64,000 nucleotides of DNA, from contig OZ024742.1 of the NCBI GenBank assembly GCA_964016885.1, forward strand, positions 158,472,001 through 158,536,000, given 5' to 3'. Positions 61,060 to 61,206 of the stretch are shown here, in pieces (position 1 is the first letter of the stretch; every line of letters starts with the position of its first letter). The notes beneath the pieces were generated by a model. The model was not told the DNA's origin. It searched no databases and saw only the letters and a program-made list of their open reading frames with translations. The position numbers were made by a program, and so were the translations under genes. This stretch comes from Eledone cirrhosa. Taxonomy: Eukaryota.

Positions 61060-61206
61060 TTATTTAACGATCGTTTCTAGGATATATATGTGTTAGAATT
61101 GGCATGCATATTCAACAGATCTATGTACAAAATTATACAAAATTATACAAACTATCAAAATTAAATATACATACCCAACACATATATATGCCGTCTTCAG
61201 AAATAA
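61060..61206 (-). ncRNA. Type I hammerhead ribozyme-like motif (HHR-B) with palindromic stem III and very long stem II
   Basis: Minus strand reads UUAUUU-CUGAAGA(61200-61194)-116-nt stem II-GAAA(61077-61074)-C GAUC G-UU-AAAUAA. AACGATCGTT (61066-61075) is a perfect palindrome. Stem II helices are AUAUAUAUGUGUUGG/CUAACACAUAUAUAU and GUAUGUAUAUUUAA/UUGAAUAUGCAUGC. The base of stem II is mismatched. Confidence 0.7.

What the first reader, a model, noticed from the sequence alone, without database searches (positions are those of the whole stretch)
61060..61206. Hammerhead ribozyme motif B: palindromic stem III and an unusually long (116-nt) stem II
Seen: UUAUUU-CUGAAGA...GAAAC-GAUC-GUU-AAAUAA on the minus strand, with palindrome AACGAUCGUU. 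Stem II has two 14-15-bp helices rich in G-U pairs that work on this strand only. Predicted cleavage is between 61066 and 61065. Known: palindromic minimal stem III is the hallmark of dimer-acting type I hammerheads in Penelope-like elements. Inference: a second family, unrelated in sequence to motif A, carried by a 361-bp TGTA...TACA segment (60858-61218) in (TA)n. The long stem II could evade standard covariance-model searches. The C/A mismatch at the base of stem II suggests this copy is impaired.
Basis: partly seen in the sequence, partly recalled or inferred. Interest (0 to 1): 0.72.

Follow-up and report, generated by a model that had tools for sequence, protein, structure and literature searches.

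The report
Long-armed hammerhead in Penelope retrotransposon stub
This is a leftover stub of an abundant, young Penelope-type jumping gene that carries a hammerhead motif (predicted to self-cut only as a pair) with one arm several times the usual length; the motif occurs about 11,000 times in this genome, and the stub likely begins where the element's RNA begins and was likely copied from uncut RNA.

Summary
The motif is real and correctly placed. The 349-bp stub (60858-61206, minus strand) is the 5'-truncated end repeat of a young Hydra-clade Penelope-like retrotransposon (full unit about 7 kb, 813-aa RT/GIY-YIG ORF). 10,899 exact-core copies have a 99-129-nt stem II (control 0), against 12-26 nt in published Hydra hammerheads. 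The arm covaries across lineages. Two first-reader claims fail. The C/A mismatch is family-wide, not damage. TGTA...TACA is not a terminal repeat. Of 101 position-ordered copies, 41 end within stem I's 5' strand and 6 in the next 69 nt; no clear excess ends at the cut site. The stub is thus likely a run-off copy of uncut RNA that starts at the ribozyme. Monomers are predicted to fold inactive and dimers open; cleavage is untested. A donor-like GUAUGU in the arm might make splicing and cutting exclusive, but there are no RNA data. The scan has already noted long-armed Hydra hammerheads, start-site fold-backs and twin hairpins elsewhere in this genome. New variant of a known kind.

The parts
60858..61206 (-). 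349-bp 5'-truncated end repeat (pseudo-LTR plus tail) of a Hydra-clade Penelope-like element
   Evidence: 99-100% identical to 29 other genomic copies; the same stretch flanks an 813-aa ORF on both sides in L032
61201..61206 (-). stem I 5' strand, 6 of the 10 nt found in full copies; lies in the family's hot spot of 5' ends (likely RNA start one base upstream)
61194..61200 (-). hammerhead core CUGAAGA
   Evidence: intact in 52 of 52 anchored copies fetched without using the core
61078..61193 (-). 116-nt stem II: C/A at the base, 2 bp, C/C, helix IIa, 3'-side bulge, helix IIb, distal module
   Evidence: z -7.3; compensatory changes in helix IIa across 21 lineage representatives
61169..61174 (-). 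GUAUGU, invariant 5' strand of helix IIb; splice-donor-like (untested)
   Evidence: present in 100 of 101 copies; best or joint-best donor-like site of the leader in 4 of 5 representatives by a crude consensus count, second in the fifth
61118..61156 (-). distal module of stem II (3-bp helix, internal loop, terminal helix) conserved in sequence while its flanks vary by indels
   Evidence: alignment A1 columns 58-97
61074..61077 (-). core GAAA
61066..61075 (-). palindromic stem III (2 stable bp as a monomer; 8-bp intermolecular duplex predicted) ending in U16.1-U17; predicted cut 61066/61065
   Evidence: position 17 is U in 156, A in 77, C in 1, G in 0 of 234 copies
61056..61065 (-). stem I 3' strand (10 nt)
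60907..60989 (-). first of two bulged hairpins that follow the element's two 3' ends; short end at about 60993, long end at 60858 just before the second hairpin (absent from this stub)
   Evidence: ends; folds in three lineages: (z -3.2)
61207..61218 (-). junction filler, not family sequence; repeats the end of the neighbouring element in inverted orientation
60819..60857 (.). (TA)n target at the element's 3' end
61219..61399 (.). (TA)n with duplicated pieces of the target flank at the 5' junction

Best explanation
The motif is the hammerhead in the end repeat of a young, very abundant Hydra-clade Penelope-like retrotransposon, and this copy is a stub likely made when the element's reverse transcriptase copied an uncut RNA from an internal start to the RNA's 5' end, which likely lies at the first base of the ribozyme. 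Shown: the anatomy, the link to a full RT/GIY-YIG element, two fixed 3' ends 135 nt apart that each precede a bulged hairpin, a sharp cluster of 5' ends in stem I's 5' strand, and a long stem II kept by compensatory changes. Inferred: transcription starts at the A before UUAUUU. The lone ribozyme there is off, because stem III is too short and the A of the C/A mismatch helps UUUCU pair with AGAAA and bury the core, so the RNA survives as template. In read-through RNA from tandem copies stem I is 10 bp, and two ribozymes would pair through the palindrome and cut slowly, perhaps with help from the element's protein. The long arm is likely a sequence-specific handle (protein or tertiary contact) rather than just a stabiliser.
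For: Full unit in L032: ribozyme at 1875, ORF 2376-4817, second ribozyme at 8954. The 150 best-scoring ORF starts are 94-100% identical, many with an open 830-codon frame and in 6.5-7-kb tandems. Hydra motifs present. 10,899 + 365 + 53 exact-core matches by stem II length class, control 0. Pair counts on 21 representatives: 97.8% of cells paired, 15 cells with double changes against 4.6 in shuffles (0/500); only 4 pairs carry double changes (124/500 shuffles reach that). 5' ends of 101 position-ordered copies: 41 within stem I's 5' strand (17 exactly at the A), 6 at 11-79 nt, 48 extend 80 nt or more, 6 abut a SINE; 14 of 30 head-to-head pairs have cores 55 bp or less apart. All 48 long copies keep TCAT at the start and AATAAA, and 46 keep ATTGG 60-100 nt upstream. 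Ends at the cut site: 55 pattern matches against 41 at a control site 10 nt away, about 24 and 21 true ends among the first 30 loci of each; not significant. Folding: active monomer fold costs +3 to +12 kcal/mol; dimer -106.6 against 2 x -45.9 with open cores. Precedent: in the anole element uncut RNA is the main template, RT starts at two internal sites and the ribozyme needs protein (PMC11167929).
Against: No RNA evidence for the start site, cleavage or expression: no RNA holder was listed. The 5' ends scatter over about 10 nt, and AATAAA 12-13 nt upstream makes a poly(A) cut or an RT stop at stem I equally compatible with the cluster. The excess of G before the first A (14 of 53 against 10% local) is largely explained by templated pieces. 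Many of the 41 ends are two arms of one insertion, so they are not independent. Folding models leave out the tertiary core, and the dimer fold found is strand-swapped, not the classical kissing dimer. Covariation comes from a few related lineages of one genome. The handle role of the arm is untested.
Confidence: 0.68

Rival explanations
1. Same element, but the long arm exists to hide a 5' splice site: an intron from GUAUGU in stem II to an AG 35 nt before the start codon removes the ribozyme's 3' half and both RT start hairpins. Spliced RNA would be mRNA and unspliced RNA the template.
For: GUAUGU in 100 of 101 copies; an AG 28-35 nt before the ATG in 42 of 44 ORF starts; 10 upstream ATGs would drop to 1. 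The 5' strand of helix IIb never varies while its partner varies at 5 of 8 pairs. Donor at +32 to +34 from the presumed start; D. virilis Penelope has an intron 46 nt after its start (PMC2377424).
Against: The conserved UAG-UU-GAGC is also the 3' strand of the second RT-start hairpin, which explains its conservation without splicing. GTATGT is common in this microsatellite-rich DNA. No genomic copy has the shorter within-arm splice junction (0 of 4 short-arm hits).
Confidence: 0.17
2. The cluster of 5' ends is a poly(A) cleavage site, not a start: read-through RNA is cut after CA, and the downstream piece is protected by stem I and reverse-transcribed.
For: AATAAA in 48 of 48 long copies, 12-13 nt before CA, with a GU-rich stretch downstream.
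Against: ATTGG at a CCAAT-box distance in 46 of 48 and an initiator-like TCATT fit a promoter; Penelope promoters lie in the end repeat (PMC2377424, PMC3846280 passages).
Confidence: 0.2
3. The hammerhead is catalytically dead in this lineage and is kept only as a structural signal.
For: No G10.1-C11.1 pair; inactive monomer fold is the predicted minimum; no cut-site footprint in genomic copies.
Against: Lineage-level core changes fall only at the tolerated positions 7 and 17, never G17; stem I has a compensatory change.
Confidence: 0.15
4. A self-contained 361-bp non-autonomous element (MITE-like TGTA...TACA ends, or a retrozyme monomer).
For: Thousands of stubs of this size are implied by the sampled share.
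Against: Other copies lack the TGTA end and many continue into 1.3 kb or more of upstream sequence and the ORF; no short tandem arrays of this unit were seen among the 100 listed places.
Confidence: 0.04

Closest known systems
Hydra-clade Penelope-like elements and their hammerheads (Craig et al. 2021, PMC8557442; seen: passages, section 11, supplement parts 1-2 and search hits)
   Same: C-terminal GIY-YIG, DKT, CxCx5C, CxxC and CxH motifs, (TA)n targets, type I hammerhead with palindromic 3-4-bp stem III, frequent mismatch at the base of stem II; collinear by eye with Hydra-1_Obim and Hydra-1_Ajap proteins
   Different: Stem II is 99-126 nt against 12-26 nt in the 26 listed Hydra rows; base mismatch is C/A rather than U/U; unit is 6.5-7.1 kb against generally under 3 kb; about 11,000 motif copies
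Minimal dimer-acting hammerheads of metazoan PLEs (Cervera and de la Pena 2014, PMC4209133; parts 1-2 of 4 and passages)
   Same: In the end repeats, palindromic or absent stem III, predicted dimer action, head-to-head copies
   Different: Their helix II is 6-8 bp with G10.1-C11.1 highly conserved; here it is over 30 bp with C/A and C/C mismatches
Poseidon element PAc of Anolis (Frangieh et al. 2024, PMC11167929; parts 1-2 of 4)
   Same: Two internal RT start sites that define a one-sided tail; copies made from uncut RNA
   Different: Tail is 135 nt here (30-40 bp is the size given for PLE tails); the ORF starts 500 nt downstream, not inside stem II; different clade
D. virilis Penelope 5' leader (Schostak et al. 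2008, PMC2377424; passages)
   Same: Start site in the end repeat; an intron near the start (here only a candidate donor)
   Different: There the intron ends at stem I's 5' edge (PMC4209133); here a donor would lie inside stem II; not shown to splice
Animal non-LTR retrozymes (PMC7229834 passages; 10.64898/2026.07.22.740005 part 1 of 5)
   Same: Type I hammerhead in high-copy repeats; U/U mismatch at the base of helix II reported in axolotl
   Different: Those are short non-coding tandem units; this is a stub of a coding element

Membership tests
Type I hammerhead ribozyme | Core CUGANGA, GAAA and UH around three helices, open at stem I | tested here: met
   52 of 52 and 52 of 55 anchored copies fetched without the core keep the two halves
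Type I hammerhead ribozyme | Stems supported by covariation | tested here: met
   1 pair in stem I and 3 in proximal stem II change on both sides; stem III invariant, so uninformative
Type I hammerhead ribozyme | Site-specific self-cleavage | not testable with these tools
   No assay; the indirect genomic footprint at the cut site was not significant
Minimal PLE hammerhead as described in PMC4209133 | Short helix II closed by G10.1-C11.1 | tested here: not met
   C/A at the base and a 116-nt arm; not filed under this descriptor
Minimal PLE hammerhead as described in PMC4209133 | Palindromic minimal stem III allowing dimers | tested here: met
   10-nt palindrome; dimer favoured by about 15 kcal/mol in the model
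Hydra-clade PLE | Single ORF, RT then C-terminal GIY-YIG | tested here: met
   P0001; Atlas neighbours with RVT_1 on 14-48% of members for residues 100-480 and GIY-YIG for 665-813 at 0.93-0.96; Pfam and PDB sequence searches gave nothing significant
Hydra-clade PLE | DKT in place of DKG; RWK motif | tested here: met
   DKT exact; RWR variant at the RWK position
Hydra-clade PLE | CxCx5C linker, no CCHH, CxxC and CxH around the catalytic E and N | tested here: met
   read from P0001 against the published alignment rows
Hydra-clade PLE | Insertion into (TA)n; hammerhead in the end repeat; inverted 5'-truncated copies and one-sided tail | tested here: met
   28 of 30 best copies run into (TA)n at the long end, 2 continue into the ORF
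Hydra-clade PLE | Placement in the clade on an RT tree | not tested
   No tree built; the published proteins were seen only as text
MITE or other element with terminal inverted repeats | Shared TGTA...TACA ends | tested here: not met
   other copies lack the 5' end
Non-LTR retrozyme | Short non-coding unit in tandem arrays | tested here: not met
   tandem period is 6.5-7.1 kb and includes the ORF

The most novel reading that the evidence does not exclude
The long arm is a switch: it hides a splice donor inside the ribozyme at the very start of the element's RNA, so each transcript either splices (losing the cut site and both RT start hairpins, becoming mRNA) or stays folded and serves as template. 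That would explain both why Penelope-like elements keep introns and why they carry weak ribozymes.
Probability: 0.15. Interest if true: 0.72.

Novelty: new variant of a known kind. Interest (0 to 1): 0.4.

Why it matters
What hammerheads do in Penelope-like elements is an open question (stated so in PMC8557442). This family offers thousands of near-identical copies that map where RT starts and stops relative to the ribozyme, and they point to uncut RNA as template. A 100-125-nt stem II at about 11,000 sites in one genome means that surveys with short-spacer descriptors undercount animal hammerheads. I found no description of such an arm in the library searches, but the scan has noted it repeatedly in other families of this genome, so this instance adds depth more than surprise.

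Tried and rejected
Rfam: no hammerhead hit; the short-arm control was missed too. Sequencing runs: no RNA holder listed; contigs of five runs of unrecorded type showed no joint at the candidate splice sites, which is no evidence either way. A 98-nt intron wholly inside stem II that would give a compact ribozyme: fits some variants only, and no genomic copy shows the junction; rejected. Cap-derived G at 5' junctions: 14 of 53, mostly explainable as templated; not used as support. ADAR editing as the source of the G-U pairs: private A>G 29 against T>C 33 in stem II of 234 copies, no strand bias; rejected. Hot spot of 5' ends at the cut site: not significant. Pfam and PDB sequence searches of the ORF: nothing significant. 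Lunse et al. (PMC5785218) is not held and was seen only as cited in a review, so long-arm variants there cannot be excluded; Craig supplement parts 3-59 were seen only through search hits. The 63-nt and 65-nt stem II families could not be tied to an ORF in the four regions fetched for them.

Full report
Observation. The 116-nt stem II folds far better than its shuffles (z -7.3, 0 of 200) and much better than the opposite strand (z -2.8, 4 of 200). My own type I finder gave two hits in window 57301-64000: this motif and motif A near 59662; the two share no significant similarity.

What it belongs to. A genome search with the 361-bp piece scored 40 of 575 candidates and returned copies 98-100% identical from query base 12-13 to 361, often with an inverted partner covering bases 13-226. 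Of the 30 best, 28 run into (TA)n at base 361 and 2 continue. Following these gave a full unit of about 7.08 kb: ribozyme, 500-nt leader, 813-aa ORF, 4.1-kb microsatellite-rich 3' region, second ribozyme, tail, (TA)n. The protein has DKT, RWR, CxCx5C, a GIY-YIG-type end with CxxC and CxH and no CCHH, which are the features given for the Hydra clade in PMC8557442 (section 11 read), and it runs collinear by eye with Hydra-1_Obim and Hydra-1_Ajap. Pfam and PDB gave nothing; Atlas neighbours carry RVT_1 and GIY-YIG. No tree was built. The 150 best ORF starts are 94-100% identical, many with open 830-codon frames and in tandems, so the family is young. The window copy is a 349-bp stub. Its first 12 bases are filler repeating the neighbour's end, so TGTA...TACA is a coincidence.

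How common and how conserved the arm is. Exact-core patterns found 53, 365 and 10,899 matches for stem II of 39-69, 70-98 and 99-129 nt, with 0 in each reversed control; a slightly different pattern found 4 with 8-38 nt, all of which look like deleted copies of long-arm lineages. Both arms of inverted pairs are counted. The 26 published Hydra rows have 12-26 nt between the core halves, and 15 have a mismatch at the first position (my count). At least three lineages share the arm; their ORFs range from about 76% to 100% identity. In 21 representatives chosen by me from the 101-copy sample plus the window, 97.8% of cells pair and 15 cells change on both sides against 4.6 in shuffles (0 of 500), although only 4 pairs are involved (124 of 500 shuffles reach that) and the sequences are related. 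The C/A and C/C mismatches, the 5' strand of helix IIb and the distal module are invariant or nearly so. In 80 loci fetched without using the core, 68 copies were found; 52 of the 52 with a 5' anchor have CUGAAGA and 52 of the 55 with a 3' anchor have the intact second half. Position 17 is never G in 234 copies. The C/A is therefore a family trait, not damage. What this stub has lost is 4 bp of stem I and the upstream promoter-like region.

Where copies begin and end. I took the first 100 listed places, which are in order along contig C1 and so not chosen for their 5' ends, and found 101 copies. 41 end within the 5' strand of stem I (17 exactly at the A before UUAUUU), 6 end 11-79 nt upstream, 48 extend 80 nt or more and 6 abut a SINE; 14 of 30 head-to-head pairs have their cores within 55 bp. 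Many ends are two arms of one insertion. The 48 long copies all keep TCAT at the edge and AATAAA just upstream, and 46 keep ATTGG 60-100 nt upstream. By contrast, 5' ends at the cut site are rare: 55 matches against 41 at a control site, about 24 and 21 true ends in the first 30 loci of each by my reading, p about 0.1, and many sit at microhomologies. At the 3' side, a rough classing gave 48 short ends, 27 long ends in (TA)n, 3 continuing and 23 other. Each end precedes a bulged hairpin that folds in all three lineages; this check followed a lead from earlier scan notes.

Mechanism. Shown: RT products start at two fixed sites 135 nt apart, cross the cut site intact and very often stop at stem I's 5' strand. 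Inferred: that stop is the RNA's 5' end, most likely a start site (rival: a poly(A) cut or a structural stop). In the folding model the lone ribozyme prefers to pair UUUCU with AGAAA, using the A of the C/A mismatch and burying the core; forcing the active fold costs 3-7 kcal/mol with 10-bp stem I and 5-12 with 6-7 bp, and two copies gain about 15 kcal/mol by pairing through the palindrome with open cores. This fits the anole element, where uncut RNA is the main template, RT starts at two internal sites and the ribozyme needs the protein (PMC11167929, parts 1-2 read), and the low dimer-only activity of PLE hammerheads (PMC4209133, parts 1-2; review passages). Head-to-head copies with a one-sided tail and initiator-like motifs in the end repeat are known (PMC3846280 passages), where an antisense self-priming model is offered instead.

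The splice idea. GUAUGU sits at +32 to +34 inside the arm in 100 of 101 copies, an AG lies 28-35 nt before the ATG in 42 of 44 ORF starts, and splicing would cut upstream ATGs from 10 to 1; D. virilis Penelope has an intron 46 nt after its start (PMC2377424 passages). Against it, the AG is part of the second RT-start hairpin, the hexamer is common in this DNA, and no RNA run was available. I give it about 15%.

Novelty. Library searches for long or extended stem II hammerheads, for hammerhead plus splice site plus stem II, and for cephalopod Penelope hammerheads found no description; one key paper was not held and most of one supplement was not read. Earlier scan notes report long-armed Hydra hammerheads, start-site fold-backs and twin hairpins in other pieces of this genome; none matched this sequence. 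They are not independent support. Verdict: a real, well-conserved structural variant of a known ribozyme in a known clade of retroelements, with cleavage and the role of the arm untested. Interest 0.40.

Noticed in passing
window 59600-59670, minus strand: Motif A: a second type I hammerhead-like motif with a 38-nt stem II and 8-bp stem I, unrelated in sequence.
   Followed up: partly
window 59981-60819: Another (TA)n-bounded element with 230-bp direct repeats (about 59981-60209 and 60589-60819); its last 13 bases recur at 61328, beyond the stub. No match to P0001.
   Followed up: partly
window 61730-62242, plus strand: Broken reading frames resembling the C-terminal zinc knuckle and restriction-like endonuclease of a non-LTR retrotransposon (resemblance recalled, not tested).
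   Followed up: no
window 1-57314: About 300 copies of a 180-bp tandem unit and flanking simpler repeats with Thr/Ala-rich coding potential on the plus strand (mucin-like by recall); the stub is antisense to it.
   Followed up: no
L062, L067, L126, L185, L196-L198, L204, L263: A tRNA-like SINE abuts stem I in a sub-lineage; in L067 it sits inside the end repeat with a short duplication that restores stem I's 5' strand.
   Followed up: partly
L107, L111, L115 and L106, L110, L120: Two further families share the same palindromic stem III but have 63-nt and 65-nt stem II of unrelated sequence; the first keeps the C/A then 2 bp then pyrimidine mismatch pattern. Not tied to an ORF.
   Followed up: partly
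L205, L018, L173, L015 junctions: Junction filler in head-to-head pairs often reiterates the first 10-13 bases of the presumed RNA, as if RT re-copied the template end.
   Followed up: no
run X5 laid on L032:1874-1963: A contig under a second organism label holds the ribozyme with the same inversion at the stem I edge.
   Followed up: no
L032:4818-8950: The element's 4.1-kb 3' region consists largely of (TA)n, (TG)n and (TATG)n tracts that are carried along in copies, so the element spreads microsatellite DNA, its own target.
   Followed up: no
L040:3645-9903: A different RT + GIY-YIG element with an Asn-rich insert lies next to one copy.
   Followed up: no
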